From positions 1-28,630 of the IMG/VR virus record IMGVR_UViG_3300033067_000303: a stretch of DNA of 28,630 nt; one strand, 5' to 3'. Made by a program: the position numbers and the translations under genes. The stretch comes from a virus (taxonomy: Duplodnaviria > Caudoviricetes). The notes beneath the pieces are model-generated. The model had not been told where the DNA came from and searched no databases. It saw nothing but the letters and a program-made list of their open reading frames with translations. Positions 1-28,057 of this stretch are shown piece after piece (the stretch's first letter is position 1; each line of letters begins with the position of its first letter).

Positions 1-24
1 GGTTGAACAGAGAAAGGACGAAAA

Positions 25-264
25 ATGCACATTGAACCGCTGGTGAAGATTGACCAGATCGAAACAGGCGACCTGCTGCTGATTGACGATGGGATCGGCA
101 TTACGCACGCCAAGGCGCAACGGGTGAAGGTTTCTGAACACGATGGCACCGAGGTGATTTTCAACCTGCGCAAGAACAAGTTTTTCAACGTCGGGATGTA
201 CCTCAACGGGAAGTCGTGGGCGAAGGACGTTCGCATTGTGCGAAGGGTGCCTTCTAACGCCTGA
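25..264 (+). CDS. Hypothetical protein, cassette gene 1 (ends PSNA* inside attC1)
   Basis: 79-aa ORF with an AAAGGA RBS; the TGA stop lies inside the attC-like site. Confidence 0.8.
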   Translation: MHIEPLVKIDQIETGDLLLIDDGIGITHAKAQRVKVSEHDGTEVIFNLRKNKFFNVGMYLNGKSWAKDVRIVRRVPSNA

Positions 265-314
265 GATAACCGGAGCGCCGATTGCGGCGCGTCCGGTTGA
301 TTGAATAGTTAGGT
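252..314 (-). mobile_element. attC: Integron attC-like site 1 (63 bp)
   Basis: Minus strand reads ACCTAAC TATTC AATCAACC GGA C GCGCCG CAAT CGGCGC TCC GGTTATC TCAGGC GTTAGAA. This gives R'', an 8-nt L'', a stem with an extrahelical base, a 7-nt L' and R'. Confidence 0.9.
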
Positions 315-328
315 TGCGGAGGTTGAAT

Positions 329-751
329 ATGCGATTTGAACCACAGTTGCCGAAGTTGATTGCCGCCAGATTCCCCGGCGTGTGCGACTTTGAAATAGAC
401 CACCTTGCGGAGCGAGTGCAGCCGGTGGAGTACGAAGACTGCAAAGGACGCATGGCGAACGAGTGGCCGCCTGTGGCGTGTTGGCGCGTTGGGGTGCAGC
501 GGTTCAGGTATGTACTGAAGCCGACTTTCCGCGCCGAGCGGTGGGGCGTGCTGTGCTTTGGTGGGACGACTGTACGCGCCAACTACAGCGACGAAGATGG
601 CAAATTGTGGCAACTGCTGCAATGGTCATCCGAAGGAAAGACTGCGGATGAGATGAACCGACTGCTCGGCAACGAGCAACCTAACGCACTAGCTCAGGCG
701 GACGCCGCTTGCGGCGTGTCGCCTGGAGCGATGGGTTCGGCGGCGGATTGA
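329..751 (+). CDS. Hypothetical protein, cassette gene 2 (reads through attC2)
   Basis: GGAGG RBS and ATG at 329 (ORF track starts at 314); QPNA is followed by an attC-encoded tail LAQADAACGVSPGAMGSAAD. Confidence 0.75.
   Translation: MRFEPQLPKLIAARFPGVCDFEIDHLAERVQPVEYEDCKGRMANEWPPVACWRVGVQRFRYVLKPTFRAERWGVLCFGGTTVRANYSDEDGKLWQLLQWSSEGKTADEMNRLLGNEQPNALAQADAACGVSPGAMGSAAD
679..741 (-). mobile_element. attC: Integron attC-like site 2 (63 bp)
   Basis: Minus strand reads GCCGAAC CCATC GCTCCAGG CGA C ACGCCGC AA GCGGCGT CCG CCTGAGC TAGTGC GTTAGGT. Confidence 0.9.
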
Positions 752-772
752 AACGATGAAAGGAAACGGACG

Positions 773-979
773 ATGAATGAAGTAGTGATTAAGCGGGAAC
801 TGGCAGAAGCAACGCAGCGCATTGTGAAGTCCCGCGACCCGAACATGCCCGCCGTTGCCAACGTGCTAAACGCACTCGGTGATCTGCTCTCGGCATGGAC
901 CGGCGAGACGGTGCGTGTGCAAGTGACTGCCGAAGGCCAGACCGAGGCGGTGGATATGGTTAAGCCGAGAACGCAATGA
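773..979 (+). CDS. Hypothetical protein, cassette gene 3
   Basis: 68-aa ORF with an AAAGGA RBS directly after attC2. Confidence 0.75.
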   Translation: MNEVVIKRELAEATQRIVKSRDPNMPAVANVLNALGDLLSAWTGETVRVQVTAEGQTEAVDMVKPRTQ

Positions 980-1008
980 GTAGCGCCGGCCTGACGCCGA
1001 ACGCTTAG
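976..1008 (+). CDS. Mini-ORF MSSAGLTPNA* coupled to gene 3
   Basis: ATGA overlap with the gene 3 stop; it enters attC3 in the same frame as the other cassette genes. Confidence 0.35.
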   Translation: MSSAGLTPNA

Positions 1009-1078
1009 GTGATGGGCCGAGGCAACGCCAGTTGCCGAAGGTCCAGCGCGAAGCGTGACATCGACCGCTGTGTTATGC
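996..1078 (-). mobile_element. attC: Integron attC-like site 3 (83 bp)
   Basis: Plus strand GCCGAAC..GGTGATG...CATCGACC..GTTATGC, with the extra base in the right L box and an internal GGCAAC/GTTGCC hairpin. Confidence 0.85.
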
Positions 1079-1098
1079 GGGTTTTGAAAGGAATTTAG

Positions 1099-1314
1099 AT
1101 GGACAAAGAAGAACAGCAGGAAGAACTACAAGAAGCGTTCGCTGCATTTGCAGCCGAGTACCCGCAAAGCGCCCTTGCCCTGATAATCGGCCTGTTTGTT
1201 GGCCTGCTTGAATACAGCGTGAAAGAGCAAGGTGGCGACGAGACGCTGGCGATCAAGATTGACGGATGCGGGAAGCGGGACATCACTGTTTCGGCGATGC
1301 CTCATAACGCTTAG
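1099..1314 (+). CDS. Hypothetical protein with a hydrophobic segment, cassette gene 4 (ends PHNA*)
   Basis: 71-aa ORF with an AAAGGA RBS; the TAG stop lies inside attC4. Confidence 0.8.
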   Translation: MDKEEQQEELQEAFAAFAAEYPQSALALIIGLFVGLLEYSVKEQGGDETLAIKIDGCGKRDITVSAMPHNA

Positions 1315-1391
1315 GTAACAAGTCGCCGCGACTGGTGGCAATTTTACGAATAACGCTCATTGCGGCGGTCTTGTTGACCGTTGAGTTGGGC
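1302..1391 (-). mobile_element. attC: Integron attC-like site 4 (90 bp)
   Basis: Plus strand TCATAAC..GGTAACAAG TCGCCGCGA...TTGCGGCGG T CTTGTTGACC..GTTGGGC. Confidence 0.85.
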
Positions 1392-1411
1392 CGGTTTTTG
1401 GAGATTGAACG

Positions 1412-1714
1412 ATGAATGGAAGAATACTCACCTGTGTTTATTGCGGGCACGAATACCCCCAGGACACACCGGCAGCAGGAAGCCATGTGCTGACGCAGCA
1501 CATCAAGGTTTGCGAGCGGCACCCAATGCGGAAGGCCGAAGGCGACATTGCTCTGCTGCGCGGCGCGCTTGTTGGCCTGATCGGCGCAGACGGCGAGGAC
1601 GATTTGCGGCAGATGGAAGCGACGATGCGACTTTTGCCGGCACCGGACGCCGATAAGGCGGTTTCGATCAACGCGATTCACGCGCTGCTGGCGACCATGA
1701 CGCCCAACGCCTGA
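1412..1714 (+). CDS. Zn-finger-like phage protein, cassette gene 5 (ends TPNA*)
   Basis: CVYC...HIKVC..H motif; GGAG RBS; stop inside attC5. Confidence 0.8.
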   Translation: MNGRILTCVYCGHEYPQDTPAAGSHVLTQHIKVCERHPMRKAEGDIALLRGALVGLIGADGEDDLRQMEATMRLLPAPDADKAVSINAIHALLATMTPNA

Positions 1715-1762
1715 GATAACCCGACGGCCGTCAGGTCGGTCGGGTTGATTGAATAGTTGGGC
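1702..1762 (-). mobile_element. attC: Integron attC-like site 5 (61 bp)
   Basis: Plus strand GCCCAAC GCCTGA GATAACCCGA...TCGGGTTGATT GAATA GTTGGGC; the outer arms are nearly identical to attC1. Confidence 0.9.
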
Positions 1763-1786
1763 GGATGACGCCCGGAGAGGACTGAG

Positions 1787-2029
1787 ATGGCCTGCCCTAG
1801 ATGCGGATGCAAGGAAACATACCACTACGACGACGAAGACGCGCCAGACGATAACTGGGAACGGTGTGCGGCGTGCGGTGTGATTTTTGACATTGAAGAT
1901 CACGCCGACGAAGAGGATGACGACATTCACCCGGCCATTTCGCTGCTTGATGCGATTCAAGACCGGCCAATTGAGACTGGAGCGGCGATTACCGACAAGT
2001 GCGTGAAGATGCCGCCTAACGCTAAGTAG
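1787..2029 (+). CDS. Acidic Zn-ribbon protein, cassette gene 6 (ends PPNAK*)
   Basis: CPRC...CAAC motif; GAGG RBS. Confidence 0.8.
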   Translation: MACPRCGCKETYHYDDEDAPDDNWERCAACGVIFDIEDHADEEDDDIHPAISLLDAIQDRPIETGAAITDKCVKMPPNAK

Positions 2030-2070
2030 ACGGCAAAACCGCCGTATACGCTGGCCCTTGCCGCCTATTC
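2010..2070 (-). mobile_element. Putative attI-like primary recombination site closing the array
   Basis: R box GTTAGGC on the minus strand (2014-2020) with no long attC hairpin; inverted repeat GTAGACGGC/GCCGTATAC; direct repeat TGCCGCCTA at 2010 and 2059. Confidence 0.5.
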
Positions 2071-2150
2071 TACGAAACACGGCACCGGAAAACATTGCAG
2101 CGCAAGCAACAACAGATTTGTGTTGCATATTTGAACAAAGGAAAAACAGC

Positions 2151-2468
2151 ATGAATACGATAGATGAAATCGCGCTGCGAGTTGCAGAGAAACTAGAGCC
2201 GCGAGGCCGGACGTATTCGCCGGATCATTACATTGAATTCGCCAGCGCCCTACTCGCAGAACTGAGCAAGGAGAGTAAGCCTCATTGCTGGAAGTGCGAA
2301 GCCACCATCGCAGAGCAGGCTGCCGAAATCAGCAAGCTAATCGCCGCTGTTGCAGATCACGTTACGGTTCGCTCCGAGCAGCGCCAGACGATTATGGATC
2401 AGGCGGCGGAGATTGAGCGGCTGAAAGAGCGGCAGGATTTTGCGCCAGATCAGTGGTGGGTTAAATAA
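2151..2468 (+). CDS. Phage hypothetical coiled-coil protein (Ea22/ead-like QAAEIERLK motif)
   Basis: AAAGGA RBS and ATG at 2151 within ORF 2058..2468; two QAAEI repeats; no tyrosine-recombinase motifs. Confidence 0.65.
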   Translation: MNTIDEIALRVAEKLEPRGRTYSPDHYIEFASALLAELSKESKPHCWKCEATIAEQAAEISKLIAAVADHVTVRSEQRQTIMDQAAEIERLKERQDFAPDQWWVK

Positions 2469-2668
2469 TTGGAAAGTGTCGATACAGCACTGACTATGAT
2501 TGTGCTGCAATGGTTTCCGTAAATTGCGTCGTAAATTTATCGGAACAGCAAAGTTATCCACAACTTTTGCCACGCCAGAGCACAAGCTAACCCATGATTC
2601 CAGCAGATCAGTGCGGGAGGATGCGCTGCTTTCCATTGCGCGAAATTAACGACTTGAGCAGGCATGAT

Positions 2669-2992
2669 TTACCCCTTGAAATAGGCAAACGCTAATGCTT
2701 CAGCACGGCTATCGAATCGGCGAACCTCTTCGACTCGCAAACGCCACACGCGATATTTACCAGCAAACAGAATCAGGATGTTTCGGCGCGTCCATAGGTC
2801 GTGCTTTGGCGGTATGTACTCAATGACAGCCAGCGATTTCCAGCCGATTGCTTGGGCTACGCCAGCATGAGGAACGCGGCCTTTAAAGCTGTACGACTTG
2901 CGCGACCAGATGTAACGACGATCCGGAGTAAATAGCGTAGGGACCCAAAGCCAGAGCGCGACTATCCAGCAATTGAGCATTCGACGGCTCAT
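2669..2992 (-). CDS. Hypothetical cationic/aromatic protein at the end of the lysis cluster
   Basis: 107-aa ORF with an ATGA overlap to the lysozyme gene. Confidence 0.7.
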   Translation of the reverse strand: MSRRMLNCWIVALWLWVPTLFTPDRRYIWSRKSYSFKGRVPHAGVAQAIGWKSLAVIEYIPPKHDLWTRRNILILFAGKYRVWRLRVEEVRRFDSRAEALAFAYFKG

Positions 2993-3438
2993 ATCAGCGC
3001 AGCCTCTGCTTCGCGCCGAATAGCCAGGCCGCGTAGTACCTTGCCTCCTCCCTTATTCCATTTTCGCAATTCCTTCGGTACGTCCGCCCAGCGCCCGGCG
3101 TTGATGCGCTTGCGTAAGGTCGATGCCTTGAGCCGGCCGGTGCCCAGGTTGAACGTAAAGTCGATGATGGACGCCAAGCGCGCGGGCGTATCGATGGCGG
3201 GACAGAGCTTCAGGACGGCCGGCAGATAGATCGTGCGAACCTGCCAGATCAAAAGGTTTTCAGCGTGCTGTCGTGTGATTGGCGGATCAGCAAGCGCAAC
3301 ACGCAGGCCTCCTTGATAGTAGGTTGCCCCGAATCCAATAGTCGGCACGCCAGCAGGGCATAGGTATGGCCTAAGTCGGCACCCCTCAAAGCGGCGCGCC
3401 AGTGCTGCAGCCACCTGAACGGCTCGATCATTTGCCAC
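2989..3438 (-). CDS. Endolysin, GH24 phage lysozyme
   Basis: FEG-x-RLRPYLCPAGVPTIGFG and FNLG motifs, C-terminal GL..RREAEAAL; likely GTG start at 3438 (ORF track extends to 3486). Confidence 0.93.
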   Translation of the reverse strand: MANDRAVQVAAALARRFEGCRLRPYLCPAGVPTIGFGATYYQGGLRVALADPPITRQHAENLLIWQVRTIYLPAVLKLCPAIDTPARLASIIDFTFNLGTGRLKASTLRKRINAGRWADVPKELRKWNKGGGKVLRGLAIRREAEAALI

Positions 3439-3895
3439 GATGCGCCAGGCTGCGGTCAGCCACATAGATACCGAGGATAGCGCCAAACAGTTCGCGGTCC
3501 CAATCCGTCAGGGTGAAACCGTGGTCCATGATCTCGAAACAGACAAACAGGATGGCTAAAGTAGCCAGTAGCGGTCGAACCGACTGGTTCCATACGTCGA
3601 TAAACGCGATGCCGGTCATCTTGCCCACAGCATCAACGGTGCGATCCCATGCGCTCGCGTCGATTCGGTCTAGATCAGCGTCGCGCTGCACCTCGATCAC
3701 CTTGATGCCCATGTCTGACTGCACCTTTAGCGCTTCCAGATTGCGCTTGTGCGCAGCCTCGTCAAGCTCGCCCTGTAGGCGCATGCGGTCGAGTTCCTGA
3801 GCATGCTCCTGACGGGCCGTGATGAAGGCGGAAACCTCGCCCCAAATAGTTCTAAAAATTGAACCGCCGAAGAAAGAAATCAGTGCGGAAATCAT
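3428..3895 (-). CDS. Holin-like membrane protein (3TM holin type)
   Basis: GGAGG RBS; hydrophobic N-terminus, coiled coil, then W...VRP plus two hydrophobic segments; adjacent to the lysozyme. Confidence 0.6.
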   Translation of the reverse strand: MISALISFFGGSIFRTIWGEVSAFITARQEHAQELDRMRLQGELDEAAHKRNLEALKVQSDMGIKVIEVQRDADLDRIDASAWDRTVDAVGKMTGIAFIDVWNQSVRPLLATLAILFVCFEIMDHGFTLTDWDRELFGAILGIYVADRSLAHRGK

Positions 3896-5527: not shown

Positions 5528-7325
5528 ACGATTGAACCTGTTTTCTCCTGATTAGATCAGCAGCAAATTTCGGGTCTTGCATGGCCTTGATAAGCGTCTT
5601 TTCGATATTTGGCTCTTGCGCCTTCATTGCCCAATTAACCGGGCGTAGCAAAGTCGGCCATATGTTCGCTTCAGCAAATCCAGCCGGTGCACCAAGCGGC
5701 CCCGCTATCTGGCGAAGCAGGTTTTGTGCGCCAAGATTCTGAGCTGTTGGAGATCCAGCAGCGCGGCCCAAGTTATCCGCTGCGGCTTTACGTGCAAGGT
5801 CTTTACGAACGTCTGCTATGGTCTGATAAGCAACAGGATCAAGCGTATCTTTAAGCGTTGCACGATTGAATCCGGTCACTTGTTGCGCGAGTGCGTTTCC
5901 ATCACGAACAACACGCGATAGCGACTCATTTCGCAAAGTTGGATTACCCATCGCATCTTCTGCGGCAGATGAAGATTTCCGTAGTATCTCGTTGCCAACC
6001 TTCATGCTATTGATTGGCTTGGACATATCAGCGAATACTTGACGAGCATTTCCGTATAACGGAGATACGGTTTCTAACTCTGAAAGCAGCTTTGTTTTAA
6101 TGCTATTCAGCGCCTTGTCTCCGTGTGCAGCCAATGAAGAACTAGGCGTCTTTCCGTTCAATGCTTGATCTAGCGCGAGCTTTATATAATGCAACCCTTG
6201 AACAGAGGTAAGCGGGTCTTTAATTGGCTCGCCCATGTTTGCGGACAGCGTTTTTGCTGCATCAATCGCATCTTTAAATGCTGGACGACCTGCCAATTCC
6301 CTAAGTCCTTCGGTTGCCAAATCATCAGGTTTTGCGCGGCCACCCTCTGTCATCCACGCTCTGTCTGCAACCTCCTTAGTTGCCAACTCTCTACGCATTG
6401 CATCAGATGCGTATGCGCGTCCATATAGAGCATTTGCCGCACCCTCTCGCAAAGCATCTGCTTCAGATATGGCAACATCACTACCGCCAGCCGAGCGCAT
6501 TGCCTTAACCCGCGCCGCATTGTTCGCTAGTTGCTGCTCTGCCGTGCCGACTGCGAATTGACGCTGAAGGTTAGAAATACCAGGATCGAGCGCCGCTTCT
6601 GCCAAAGTCGGATTTACGCCGGGAACTTTTGACGAATACGCCGCAGCACGTTCTACGCGAGAAGGATCAACAGCGAATTGGCGCAAAGTACGCCCGACGA
6701 TATTTTCCTGCCCCTTCTGCGTGAATGGTTCGACAATGCCTTTCAATCCACTGTAAGCAGCAGGAATAGCGCGGCCTGCAAAAGTCCCTACGGCACCGCC
6801 AATAGCGCCTAATGTTCCATCTGTAGCACGTTGCTCAAGGTCGCCATATTTCAGGCCACCAAGCGCCGCACCAGTTGCCGCATTAGCTGCGTAAGGATTC
6901 GCCAAAACTGGCACTTTTGACGTGATAGCTCCAACTGGCAGAGCCTTTGCGCCGAGATAGGTTAATCCGACTTGTGCGCCAATATCACCAACCGGGCCAG
7001 CAATCGGAAATTGCTTATTGATCTCTCTCGCTAGTGCATCCTGATTAGCGCCTTCTTTCGTATCGCCACCACCAACCATCTGGCGAAGGCCGCGAACATA
7101 CTGCATCGCTGTGTTGCCACCTTGTGCGATTGCCGCAGTAATCGGGTTTTGCTCAGATACGACAGAAGCCAAAGAGTCAGCAAATGCGTCTTTGCCAATC
7201 TTCTTTGGCTCTTCTTTCTTTCCGTAACTTAGTGCATTTTTCTTGATTGCAGAAACAATCTGCGAATCAGTCATATCATCAGGAAATTGAACTTCACCAT
7301 GCCCAGGAACTTCAACAATCGGCAT
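5448..7325 (-). CDS. Internal virion / DNA ejection protein (large)
   Basis: 625 aa, Ala/Gly-rich with GALGG/GAIGG membrane-like segments; sits before the tail fibre. Confidence 0.75.
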   Translation of the reverse strand: MPIVEVPGHGEVQFPDDMTDSQIVSAIKKNALSYGKKEEPKKIGKDAFADSLASVVSEQNPITAAIAQGGNTAMQYVRGLRQMVGGGDTKEGANQDALAREINKQFPIAGPVGDIGAQVGLTYLGAKALPVGAITSKVPVLANPYAANAATGAALGGLKYGDLEQRATDGTLGAIGGAVGTFAGRAIPAAYSGLKGIVEPFTQKGQENIVGRTLRQFAVDPSRVERAAAYSSKVPGVNPTLAEAALDPGISNLQRQFAVGTAEQQLANNAARVKAMRSAGGSDVAISEADALREGAANALYGRAYASDAMRRELATKEVADRAWMTEGGRAKPDDLATEGLRELAGRPAFKDAIDAAKTLSANMGEPIKDPLTSVQGLHYIKLALDQALNGKTPSSSLAAHGDKALNSIKTKLLSELETVSPLYGNARQVFADMSKPINSMKVGNEILRKSSSAAEDAMGNPTLRNESLSRVVRDGNALAQQVTGFNRATLKDTLDPVAYQTIADVRKDLARKAAADNLGRAAGSPTAQNLGAQNLLRQIAGPLGAPAGFAEANIWPTLLRPVNWAMKAQEPNIEKTLIKAMQDPKFAADLIRRKQVQSSIGSLLGPVENYAIPGVSLGLLSEHR

Positions 7326-25764: not shown

Positions 25765-27125
25765 CGTCCAAACCCCTTTTTGCTTGTTCTTTCTTCTGAT
25801 CCTGGCTGCGTCCATTCACGCGCTAGAACTTCAAAGCGGGTCTGGTCGCCAATGAATGCAAGAGGAACAACGCCGGTTTTTCCTTGGCGGTTCTTGCGGA
25901 TCAGGACTTCGCAAATGCCCTTGTCGTTGCTGTTCGGGTAGTAGTACTCATCCCGATAAAGCATCACAACAACGTCGGCGTCTTGCTCGATGTTCCCTGA
26001 GTCGCGCAGGTCAGATAGAACCGGGCGCTTATCCTGTCGGTCTTCGCACTTACGCGAAAGCTGGCAAAGGAGAACAACCGGTATGCACATTTCCTTTGCG
26101 AATGCCTTGAACGTCTTTGTGATCTGTCCTAGCTCGGAAACGGCCTTGGCTGAGTCGTAATCCATCAGGCCCAGCGCATCAACGATCAGCAGCTTTAGAC
26201 CATGACGGCGCTTTACCTGGCGCGCCTTGGACATGACTTCGTGAATGGATAAACCGCCTTCTTCGTCAATGAAGATAGGAAGCTCATTCAGACGACCGAC
26301 GCCAGCATTGATGCGCTGACCACTTTCGCCGCCCATCTTCGCGTCAAGAACGTCTTGCAAAGACACGCGGCCAAGCGTAGCAACCATCCGGTCAATCTGG
26401 TCTGTCTCGGACATCTCCATCGACATGATGGCGGTTTGATGTCCGTCCTTTGCTGCGTTGATGGCGAAGCAGTTCGTGAATGCCGATTTGCCCATTGAAG
26501 GACGACCGGCCACGATCACAAGGCTTCCATCCTGCAAACCGCCACCCATCTTTTCGTCCAACGAAGATAGGCCGGTCGATAACCCTCTGTTCTCGCCAGC
26601 ATGTCGGCGGGTCAGCGTTTCAACGTAATCGCTTAGTGCATCCGATACCTTGCGCGGCTGCTTTTGCTGGCGAGTCTCGGAGATAGCCATAACCAGCGAT
26701 TGCGCCTTGTTCAGCTTTTCCTTCGTCGGGCCATTCGCCATTACTGCCGAGCGGATTTCATCAACTGCGGCGAGTAACTGGCGTTCGATTGCCTTCGACT
26801 GGACTATCTCGGCATAGCGTTTGACGTTCGCGGCGCTTGGCGTGTTCTGCGCGATCTGTCCGAGATAAGGAAGACCGCCCGTCACATCATCAAGGCCGCG
26901 CTCTGAAATCGTTACGGCCAGCGTTACAACATCAATCTGCTTACCACTGGCTGACATCTCCACCATGACGCGGTAAATCTCACGGTGCGCTGCGACGTAG
27001 AAGTGTTCAGGCTTGAGCGTTGATATTTCATCAATCGCCGAGTGACGAATCAGGACTGCGCCGATAACGCTGAATTCTGCGTCAGTCGAGTGCGGGATGA
27101 AGTCGAGCATGTCTAGCGCGCTCAT
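25761..27125 (-). CDS. dnaB: DnaB-like replicative helicase
   Basis: GRPSMGKS, SMEM, QLSR..E.R.DKRP.LSDLRDSG.IEQDAD and KNRQG motifs. Confidence 0.96.
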   Translation of the reverse strand: MSALDMLDFIPHSTDAEFSVIGAVLIRHSAIDEISTLKPEHFYVAAHREIYRVMVEMSASGKQIDVVTLAVTISERGLDDVTGGLPYLGQIAQNTPSAANVKRYAEIVQSKAIERQLLAAVDEIRSAVMANGPTKEKLNKAQSLVMAISETRQQKQPRKVSDALSDYVETLTRRHAGENRGLSTGLSSLDEKMGGGLQDGSLVIVAGRPSMGKSAFTNCFAINAAKDGHQTAIMSMEMSETDQIDRMVATLGRVSLQDVLDAKMGGESGQRINAGVGRLNELPIFIDEEGGLSIHEVMSKARQVKRRHGLKLLIVDALGLMDYDSAKAVSELGQITKTFKAFAKEMCIPVVLLCQLSRKCEDRQDKRPVLSDLRDSGNIEQDADVVVMLYRDEYYYPNSNDKGICEVLIRKNRQGKTGVVPLAFIGDQTRFEVLAREWTQPGSEERTSKKGFGR

Positions 27126-28057
27126 GCTGCATCCCGGTGATACTTGTTCTCGAGGCACTTGGCGAACCCGGACGGCGACATCAGAAAATCAATGTCAGCA
27201 ATGAACGGTGGCTTCCCTGGCTGCGCTTGAGCCTTGCCGGTCAGGAAGTCTGATTCGGCGCATATCTCGAAGAACTGACGCCATGCAGCGATACCGCCTT
27301 CACGGTCAGAGTAGCCAAAGGGAGCGCAATCAAGCTCTGCCGCTTCTTTCCATCTGGCTCGGATGGTTTTACGCCTTGCTTCGTTCAGAACCTTGACCGC
27401 AGGGTTAAGCGGCATGAGTTCGTGGTACAGAGCAATGATCGTGTCAGCAGGACATGGAGGCTTGCCGATCTGCTGCACCGTTGCCGACTTGTCGGCGACA
27501 TGGGGTTGTTCTTCTTCTTTTGGAGACGGAGACGGAGACGGAGACGGAGACGGAGACGGAGACGGAGACGGAGACGGAGACGGAGACGGAGACGGAGACG
27601 GAGCAGTGCTAGTTTCTGCAACGTGCATGCTACTAGCAGAATTATTCTTTGCTACGTTCCTAGTAGCAGCATAATCAGGCATGCGCCTAGCAGCTTCTTC
27701 GCGTCCATGATGCTTGCACAGAGCATTGAATTTAGCCTTCTCGCTGCGCTGCTCGGAACCTGCTGCCCAAGGATTGTGTTCTTCCCAATCGTGGATTGAA
27801 TAACCTTTTTCGTCGTTCACATCAAGGAAGCCTACAGAGATGAGCGCATCAACAAATGCGCCGTCTTCTCCTGACCAATCAACGGCCAGTTCAATGTCTT
27901 CAGAAAGCATTCCTGTAAGCTCTCCATCCGGCTTGTTTTGAGCCGCCCACAGGATAAGGCAAACAAGCCTCCAGGCAGACTCTGCGCCAGCCTTCTTAAT
28001 CAGCTTCTTTGTCTTTGGATGCGATGGCAACGCCACGCAAATACGGGCGTCAATCAT
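27122..28057 (-). CDS. Phage replication initiator (O-like)
   Basis: HPKT N-terminal wHTH, IHDW.EHN motif, Ser-Pro linker, DFL......K..E..Y C-terminus; directly upstream of the helicase. Confidence 0.85.
   Translation of the reverse strand: MIDARICVALPSHPKTKKLIKKAGAESAWRLVCLILWAAQNKPDGELTGMLSEDIELAVDWSGEDGAFVDALISVGFLDVNDEKGYSIHDWEEHNPWAAGSEQRSEKAKFNALCKHHGREEAARRMPDYAATRNVAKNNSASSMHVAETSTAPSPSPSPSPSPSPSPSPSPSPSPSPSPKEEEQPHVADKSATVQQIGKPPCPADTIIALYHELMPLNPAVKVLNEARRKTIRARWKEAAELDCAPFGYSDREGGIAAWRQFFEICAESDFLTGKAQAQPGKPPFIADIDFLMSPSGFAKCLENKYHRDAA
27522..27603. repeat. Perfect hexamer microsatellite (GGAGAC)13
   Basis: 13 exact copies plus GGAG; encodes (Pro-Ser)n on the minus strand. Confidence 0.97.

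What the first reader, a model, noticed from the sequence alone, without database searches (positions are those of the whole stretch)
258..2019. Cassette ends are mutually complementary, a footprint of real excision and integration
Seen: the right box of each site matches the left box of the next site at least as well as its own left box, and usually better. The pairs are GTTAGGTTGC/GCAACCTAAC (10/10), GTTCGGCG/CGCCGAAC (8/8), GTTATGC/TCATAAC (6/7), GTTGGGC/GCCCAAC (7/7) and GTTGGGCGG/CCGCCTAAC (8/9). Known: this is the pattern left when circular cassettes integrate with crossover at G|TT. It defines units 258-684, 685-1001, 1002-1307, 1308-1707 and 1708-2019 (306-427 bp, small for cassettes). 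It also predicts a site ending GTTAGAA just left of the window.
Basis: partly seen in the sequence, partly recalled or inferred. Interest (0 to 1): 0.85.

Follow-up and report, generated by a model that had tools for sequence, protein, structure and literature searches.

The report
Phage integron array with flipped genes
This phage carries a row of small genes bounded by the DNA hairpins that bacterial integrons use to swap genes, but every gene faces the opposite way to the usual one, so they are likely read from the phage's own early promoter and likely shuffled by an integron enzyme borrowed from the host or from related phages that encode one.

Summary
The box complementarity is real (2 of 720 re-pairings score as well). 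It is the ordinary footprint of integron cassettes and does not show which strand is cut. The unusual part is polarity. All five attC sites have their canonical top strand on the minus strand, while every gene is on plus. Unit 1708-2019 occurs with its left hairpin between other neighbours elsewhere. The predicted GTTAGAA box is present in 4 of the 5 homologues of the first gene that end in an R box. The sixth site (2020) is laid out like attI, not attC. No integron integrase lies on this 73%-complete phage contig, but 51 viral loci encode a relative of one. Next to those, the gene after a site is flipped 67 times and normal once, against 10 and 26 in host chromosomal integrons. Phage attC clusters are published; I found no paper on flipped cargo. 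This scan noted the same layout before on other DNA.

The parts
1..257 (+). Truncated first cassette: leader and 79-aa ORF (25-264); its attC and GTTAGAA box lie just off the contig end
   Evidence: homologues L009, L010, L103, L142 carry GTTAGAA upstream; run X7 shows it before position 23 (table 5c)
252..314 (-). attC site A; canonical top strand is minus; extrahelical G at 299 on +
258..684 (+). Cassette 1 (427 bp): hairpin A plus ORF 329-751, which reads through site B and gains about 22 residues
679..741 (-). attC site B; extrahelical G at 726
685..1001 (+). Cassette 2 (317 bp): hairpin B plus 68-aa ORF 773-979
   Evidence: assembled as a separate contig 682-1004 in run X6
996..1078 (-). 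attC site C; extrahelical G at 1063
   Evidence: missed by the stricter detector
1002..1307 (+). Cassette 3 (306 bp): hairpin C plus 71-aa ORF 1099-1314 (phrog_18086, unknown function)
   Evidence: whole unit matches L032 and L037 from AAC to AAC at 88-89%; a homologue is the attI-adjacent cassette of phage integron L212
1302..1391 (-). attC site D; extrahelical G at 1376
1308..1707 (+). Cassette 4 (400 bp): hairpin D plus 100-aa ORF 1412-1714
   Evidence: 96% identical protein is the attI-adjacent cassette of the complete phage integron L152, there with another left hairpin
1702..1762 (-). attC site E, same family as A; extrahelical G at 1747
1708..2019 (+). Cassette 5 (312 bp): hairpin E plus 80-aa CxxC ORF 1787-2029 (weak, below-cutoff Lar-like and zinc-binding hits)
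   Evidence: same unit between other neighbours in L102/L103 (94.6%) and run X7 (0 mismatches)
2014..2049 (-). attI-like terminal site F: R box (AAC at 2018-2020), 5 nt, 9-nt box at 2026-2034, 6 nt, inverted box at 2041-2049; no intI follows
   Evidence: not hit by a profile of the phage-type attI
2151..2468 (+). 105-aa ORF of unknown function standing where relatives have intI

Best explanation
The left 2 kb of this phage contig is an array of five attC-bounded gene cassettes plus a truncated sixth, ending in a likely attI site, in which every gene lies on the strand opposite to the one bacterial cassettes normally use. Shown: site anatomy and polarity, unit boundaries at AA|C, the same units between different neighbours in other arrays, and no intI on the contig. 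Inferred: an integron integrase supplied in trans (the host's, or that of a co-resident phage of the intI-carrying kind) binds the folded + strand, cuts at AA|C, excises hairpin-plus-gene circles and inserts them at attI or another attC. Inferred: because genes point towards attI, they are read from a phage early promoter left of the array, so the newest cassette is the last gene of the message, not the first. Most genes lack a stop codon inside their own unit and end in the next hairpin, so a gene's neighbour sets its C-terminal tail. Inferred and weaker: occasional top-strand crossover swaps hairpins among genes.
For: Polarity: 5 of 5 sites have top strand = minus, none on plus (4 of 5 with an untrained anatomy detector); extrahelical G on the right arm of + in 5 of 5; + folds more stably in 5 of 5 and the same strand in 89% of 270 bodies, as for bottom strands in PMC5027507. 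Controls come out canonical: TJE1 and Shewanella phage M16-3. Mobility: unit 1708-2019 with its left hairpin in L102/L103 and run X7 with other DNA on both sides; X7 joint 255 to 1000 skips 744 nt = 427 + 317; among 8 pairs of inverted units at least 90% alike, 5 share the left body only, 1 the right only, 2 neither. Enzyme: 51 viral loci with IntI relatives, 4 of 4 tested pass TIGR02249 (453-480 bits, cut-off 265), beside tail, lysis, terminase or phage integrase genes in the 6 loci annotated; L152 holds a 96% homologue of cassette 4 next to attI and intI. Orientation per site: 67 flipped, 1 normal, 21 undecided of 89 near phage intI; 10 flipped, 26 normal, 51 undecided of 87 in host chromosomal integrons. 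Stop codon in the next unit: 115 of 202; tails of 0-35 residues in 61 of 89 scorable homologues.
Against: No intI on the contig (73% complete), so activity here depends on an enzyme not shown. No circle junction in 4 runs, all contigs; the 744-nt joint is one contig, 25 nt on the short side, 'between: not known'. Site F is not hit by a profile of 31 phage attI sites, and its best local match to a host attI (score 30) only equals the maximum of 3000 random pieces. Cassette 4 matches L151/L152 only from GTT to AAC, with a different left hairpin, which simple bottom-strand excision does not explain. Circle junctions fold better than the integrated site in 3 of 5 units only. Orientation was called with a crude ORF and ribosome-site rule, with many undecided. 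Transcription and strand were not observed; no promoter-like site in 1-2750. Most fetched loci were selected by a site or protein of this system.
Confidence: 0.78

Rival explanations
1. The array is a frozen piece of a host chromosomal integron picked up once by the phage and no longer moved by an integrase.
For: No intI on the contig. Site F resembles host-type attI more than the phage type. The same attC family occurs in host integrons of Simplicispira, Comamonas and Accumulibacter.
Against: Host arrays are mostly canonical (46 canonical, 8 flipped, 14 undecided of 68 units), the window is 4 of 4 flipped. Cargo homologues are also ordinary phage genes without attC. Related phage DNA differs by whole units at AAC.
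Confidence: 0.08
2. The units are shuffled by the phage's own homologous recombination at short shared sequences, as recalled for early stem-loop cassettes of T4-type phages (recalled, no call), and the hairpins act mainly on RNA.
For: RecT and an exonuclease lie just upstream of the array in L004 (read by eye). Sites A and E share 23-25 nt arms. Similarity often ends in the leader, with one hairpin family preceding different genes.
Against: Bodies are diverse (median identity 0.54), yet borders fall at AAC with only 3-5 shared letters. The extrahelical G, spacer lengths and fold asymmetry that IntI needs are kept, and relatives carry intI with attI in place.
Confidence: 0.07
3. These are normal cassettes (gene followed by its hairpin) recombined at G|TT on the plus strand, by an integrase with reversed strand choice.
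For: Cassette 4 shares only GTT-to-AAC with L151/L152; 1 of 8 close pairs shares only the right body; some loose contig ends fall just after GTT. PMC5027507 reports low-level top-strand recombination for some sites.
Against: attI lies right of the array and joins it at AA|C in 25 arrays with intI within 500 nt. Units travel with the left hairpin in most informative cases. In L102 a site that matches the published aadA7 bottom strand in both arms lies on the gene strand (compared by eye).
Confidence: 0.07

Closest known systems
Canonical integrons (IntI, attI, attC cassettes; class 1 and chromosomal integrons of Betaproteobacteria)
   Same: [quoted passage not shown]
   Different: Genes are antisense to attC and point towards attI and intI; most stop in the next unit; cargo is small phage accessory genes; this copy has no intI. 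PMC4889954 says cassettes are most frequently transcribed opposite to intI.
Phage CALINs and phage integrons of Qi et al. 2023 (PMC9892861)
   Same: attC clusters without integrase in phage genomes; 5 of 6 tested phage attC sites worked with IntI1.
   Different: TJE1 and M16-3 are canonical. The text does not describe flipped cargo, an attI-like end without intI, or phage-linked IntI lineages. One of its phages, MW202573, is itself flipped (3 of 3 detected sites); I could not see its figure.
Inverted-integrase (Treponema-type) integrons
   Same: intI and cassette genes run in the same direction.
   Different: There intI is turned relative to attC (PMC4889954, PMC13323075). Here intI-attI-attC geometry is regular and the genes are turned.
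SALINs and attC x attG insertion (bioRxiv 10.1101/2022.09.11.507474)
   Same: IntI can insert cassettes at GWT sites outside integrons, which could seed arrays at TAA-C stop codons of phage genes (16 of 25 distal array ends read TAAC; no background computed).
   Different: Here there is an ordered multi-cassette array with a terminal attI-like site and uniform flipped cargo.

Membership tests
Integron cassette array (attC sites) | R''/R' boxes with AAC and GTT, L boxes in a hairpin with extrahelical G, 5 and 5-6 nt spacers | tested here: met
   5 of 5 sites, on the minus strand; 0-0.2 hits per shuffled window
Integron cassette array (attC sites) | R boxes flanking one cassette are complementary | tested here: met
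   2 of 720; 310 units
Integron cassette array (attC sites) | Bottom strand folds more stably than top strand | tested here: met
   + strand lower in 5 of 5 sites; 89% of 270 bodies, mean 1.4 kcal/mol
Integron cassette array (attC sites) | Units move as discrete cassettes | tested here: met
   same units between other neighbours; circles not seen
Integron cassette array (attC sites) | Sites are recombined by IntI on the folded bottom strand | not testable with these tools
   needs a recombination assay
Complete integron | intI gene next to the array | tested here: not met
   none on the contig; met in relatives such as L152, L212, L219, L228
Complete integron | attI site at the array end | tested here: inconclusive
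   position and layout match host attI; phage-attI profile misses it; local score not beyond null
Canonical cassette architecture | Gene on the attC top strand, upstream of its attC, read from a promoter near attI | tested here: not met
   4 of 4 inter-site units flipped; all six ORFs on +
CALIN | At least two attC sites, no neighbouring intI | tested here: met
   5 sites, no IntI; contig 73% complete
Inverted-integrase integron | intI on the same strand as attC | tested here: not met
   upstream of 31 phage intI genes checked, detected attC sites are on the opposite strand with only 4 stray same-strand hits

The most novel reading that the evidence does not exclude
Temperate phages of Betaproteobacteria run their own integron economy and are a place where cassettes are born: ordinary phage accessory genes are captured between R boxes behind a borrowed attC hairpin, hairpins and genes re-assort by alternating strand use, neighbours supply variable protein tails, and the products leak into host chromosomal integrons.
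Probability: 0.3. Interest if true: 0.85.

Novelty: new variant of a known kind. Interest (0 to 1): 0.62.

Why it matters
Integrons are taken to work because strand selectivity puts each promoterless gene in front of a promoter at attI. These phage arrays keep the chemistry and reverse the expression logic. They give phages a site-specific way to swap early genes (DNA methyltransferases, Mom-like and PAPS-reductase-like proteins, nucleases in relatives). The same genes exist with and without cassette ends, and with different hairpins, so the system offers paired natural examples for the open question of how cassettes form. It also means annotation that assigns each attC to the gene before it mis-draws these cassettes.

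Tried and rejected
Left flank of the contig: not available, the genome is the window; no terminal overlap. Rfam: no hit. BLAST of site A against named phages and of site B against plasmids: no match. Pfam, NCBIfam and PHROGs gave no function for the cassette proteins beyond two unknown-function PHROGs and below-cutoff zinc-finger hits. Site F as a long attC: no L-box partner or R' box detected. A profile of phage attI sites did not find F. Close relatives of the backbone: ORF 2151-2468 gave 1 weak locus; of 80 loci picked by the endolysin, 1 had attC sites and none had intI, so such arrays are not general in that sample, though these loci may not reach the early region. A single phage IntI clade is not shown: 31 of 32 host rows and one viral row share a branch (SH-aLRT 89) while the phage rows sit on an open fork; 6 long-branch rows were left out. 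No promoter-like site in 1-2750.

Full report
Setting. The window is a whole 28.6-kb virus record, linear and 73% complete. It encodes terminase, portal, capsid, DnaB, NinB, NinG and endolysin on the minus strand. The first 2.5 kb holds small + strand ORFs that converge on the lysis genes, the place of accessory early genes in lambdoid phages (established knowledge). Sequencing runs holding it are from river, wastewater, sludge and digester samples. Bacterial genomes with the same attC family include Azonexus, Accumulibacter, Comamonas and Simplicispira, so a betaproteobacterial host is likely (inference).

Observation. The five quoted pairs are present. Next-site pairing scores 33 of 35 over 7 nt against 26 for own-site pairing, and 2 of 720 assignments do as well. 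The fifth site is the exception: its own left box wins at 7 nt and ties at 10. Across 310 distinct units from fetched loci the flanking boxes match at 3.5 of 4 variable positions, against 2.02 for own-site boxes and 1.96 shuffled. This is the expected footprint of cassettes. It cannot give polarity, since both boxes stay with the gene whichever strand is cut.

Polarity. A detector built only on attC anatomy found sites A, B, D and E, all with the top strand on minus, with 0-0.2 hits per shuffled window. A matrix trained on 230 half-site pairs from the fetched loci, the window's included, added site C and found nothing on plus. The extra G is on the right arm of the + strand in all five, and + folds more stably in all five. 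PMC5027507 (passages) places the cut in AAC of the bottom strand, the extrahelical bases on the opposite arm, and finds bottom strands more stable. So the gene-coding strand is the bottom strand and the cut is AA|C on +. Controls behaved: the two tested TJE1 sites and the M16-3 sites lie on the strand of their annotated genes; two further TJE1 hits far from the array are probably false.

Mobility. Unit 1708-2019 with its left hairpin is found in L102/L103 (94.6% over 317 nt) and in run X7 (no mismatch), with different DNA on both sides. Unit 1002-1307 matches L032 and L037 from AAC to AAC. Run X7 has a joint from 255 to 1000 that skips 744 nt, the sum of the first two units; it rests on one contig with 25 nt on the short side. 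Run X6 has no cover over 1801-1980, which on its own proves nothing. Among 8 pairs of flipped units at least 90% alike, 5 share only the left body, 1 only the right, 2 neither. Against a simple picture, cassette 4 matches L151/L152 only between its R boxes and its gene family has many left bodies. Rare top-strand crossover would produce this (inference). No circle junction was seen in the 4 runs laid.

Left prediction. Of 9 distinct homologues of ORF 25-264, 5 end in the R box and 4 of these have GTTAGAA upstream; 4 have neither box and are ordinary phage genes. Run X7 shows the box just before the start of this gene.

Right end. Site F has an R box, 5 nt, a 9-nt box, 6 nt and an inverted copy. 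A loose pattern for R box plus L box occurs upstream of intI in 26 of 37 host-genome regions, two of them the same genome. At array ends I found 25 distinct such sites with intI within 500 nt and 21 without, the window among them; some of the latter may be chance. A profile of phage attI sites misses F and local similarity alone is marginal, so attI is likely, not shown. No IntI is on the contig.

Relatives with the enzyme. L152 is a phage locus with flipped cassettes, attI, intI, then excisionase-like and integrase genes and lysis genes; its attI-adjacent cassette is 96% identical in protein to window cassette 4. Its IntI finds 51 viral loci; 4 tested pass TIGR02249; 6 annotated have phage neighbours, one between terminase and portal. 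Of 60 units there, 43 are flipped, 6 normal, 11 undecided; per site 67, 1 and 21 of 89. In 16 host chromosomal regions the units are 8 flipped, 46 normal, 14 undecided. In the family of an Azonexus genome, 170 of 301 genomes have an IntI match and 4 reach 67% identity or more; 3 of these 4 have a phage-type integrase right after intI, and the 8 units scored beside 3 of them are all flipped. Host IntIs mostly group apart, but one phage clade is not shown. Host supply of IntI in trans is therefore plausible (inference).

Consequences. Of 202 flipped units, 115 stop in the next unit and 40 at the TAA of the R box. Four of the six window ORFs end 4-9 nt into the next site, ORF 329-751 reads through site B, and ORF 773-979 stops inside its own unit. 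Among 120 listed of 678 homologues of ORF 1412-1714, 89 could be scored and 61 show the junction followed by 0-35 residues; one tail is the same read-through as in ORF 329-751.

Literature. PMC9892861 (main text to the conclusion, supplement part 1 of 2; figures not seen) reports 17 phage CALINs, 3 complete integrons and working phage attC sites, and does not describe flipped cargo. Its phage MW202573 is flipped by my scan. PMC4889954, PMC8876359, PMC13323075 and bioRxiv 10.1101/2022.09.11.507474 were seen as passages. Eight searches (listings and abstract starts) found no paper on phage arrays with antisense cargo. Subscription papers and bioRxiv supplements are outside the library and may bear on this.

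Earlier scan notes. I formed this reading. One search then showed that the scan had noted flipped phage cassettes on other genomes, some with IntI and some with Xer-like enzymes; none matched this sequence. They are unchecked notes, not support.

Verdict. Real feature; ordinary as a complementarity pattern; a new variant of the integron in its phage setting and reversed gene layout. Mechanism confidence 0.78, interest 0.62.

Noticed in passing
L379 (MW202573) 2069-3738: A phage CALIN published by Qi et al. 2023 has 3 of 3 detected attC sites antisense to its annotated genes; the paper's text does not say so.
   Followed up: partly
L102, site after the homologue of ORF 25-264 (near 6092): An attC matching the published aadA7 bottom strand in both arms, differing at the apex, sits on the gene strand of a flipped array (by eye). 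It links these arrays to the attC family of class 1 cassettes.
   Followed up: partly
window 2018-2025 and ends of arrays in L001, L002, L016, L017, L035, L039, L048, L071, L157: Terminal sites without intI mostly start their 5-nt spacer with GC, like attC, whereas sites next to intI do not. They may be attC/attI hybrids.
   Followed up: no
window 2086-2108 and 2497-2519: A 23-nt inverted repeat (87%) flanks ORF 2151-2468, the gene standing where relatives have intI.
   Followed up: no
window 2554-2562: A single 9-mer matching the DnaA-box consensus (label recalled) in the non-coding stretch between the array side and the lysis genes; runs X2 and X6 diverge from the window after 2647.
   Followed up: no
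window 27122-28057: The replication initiator carries a long Ser-Pro repeat.
   Followed up: no
L004 3960-4060: An array begins exactly at the TAA-C stop codon of a core phage gene downstream of recT, as attG-type insertion would give.
   Followed up: partly
L205 632-9888: A phage integron with flipped cassettes and DNA methyltransferases lies between terminase and portal, in the late region.
   Followed up: no
L029, L058, L021, L026: Host chromosomal integrons carry a few flipped, phage-like cassettes among normal ones, which suggests flow from phage to host.
   Followed up: partly
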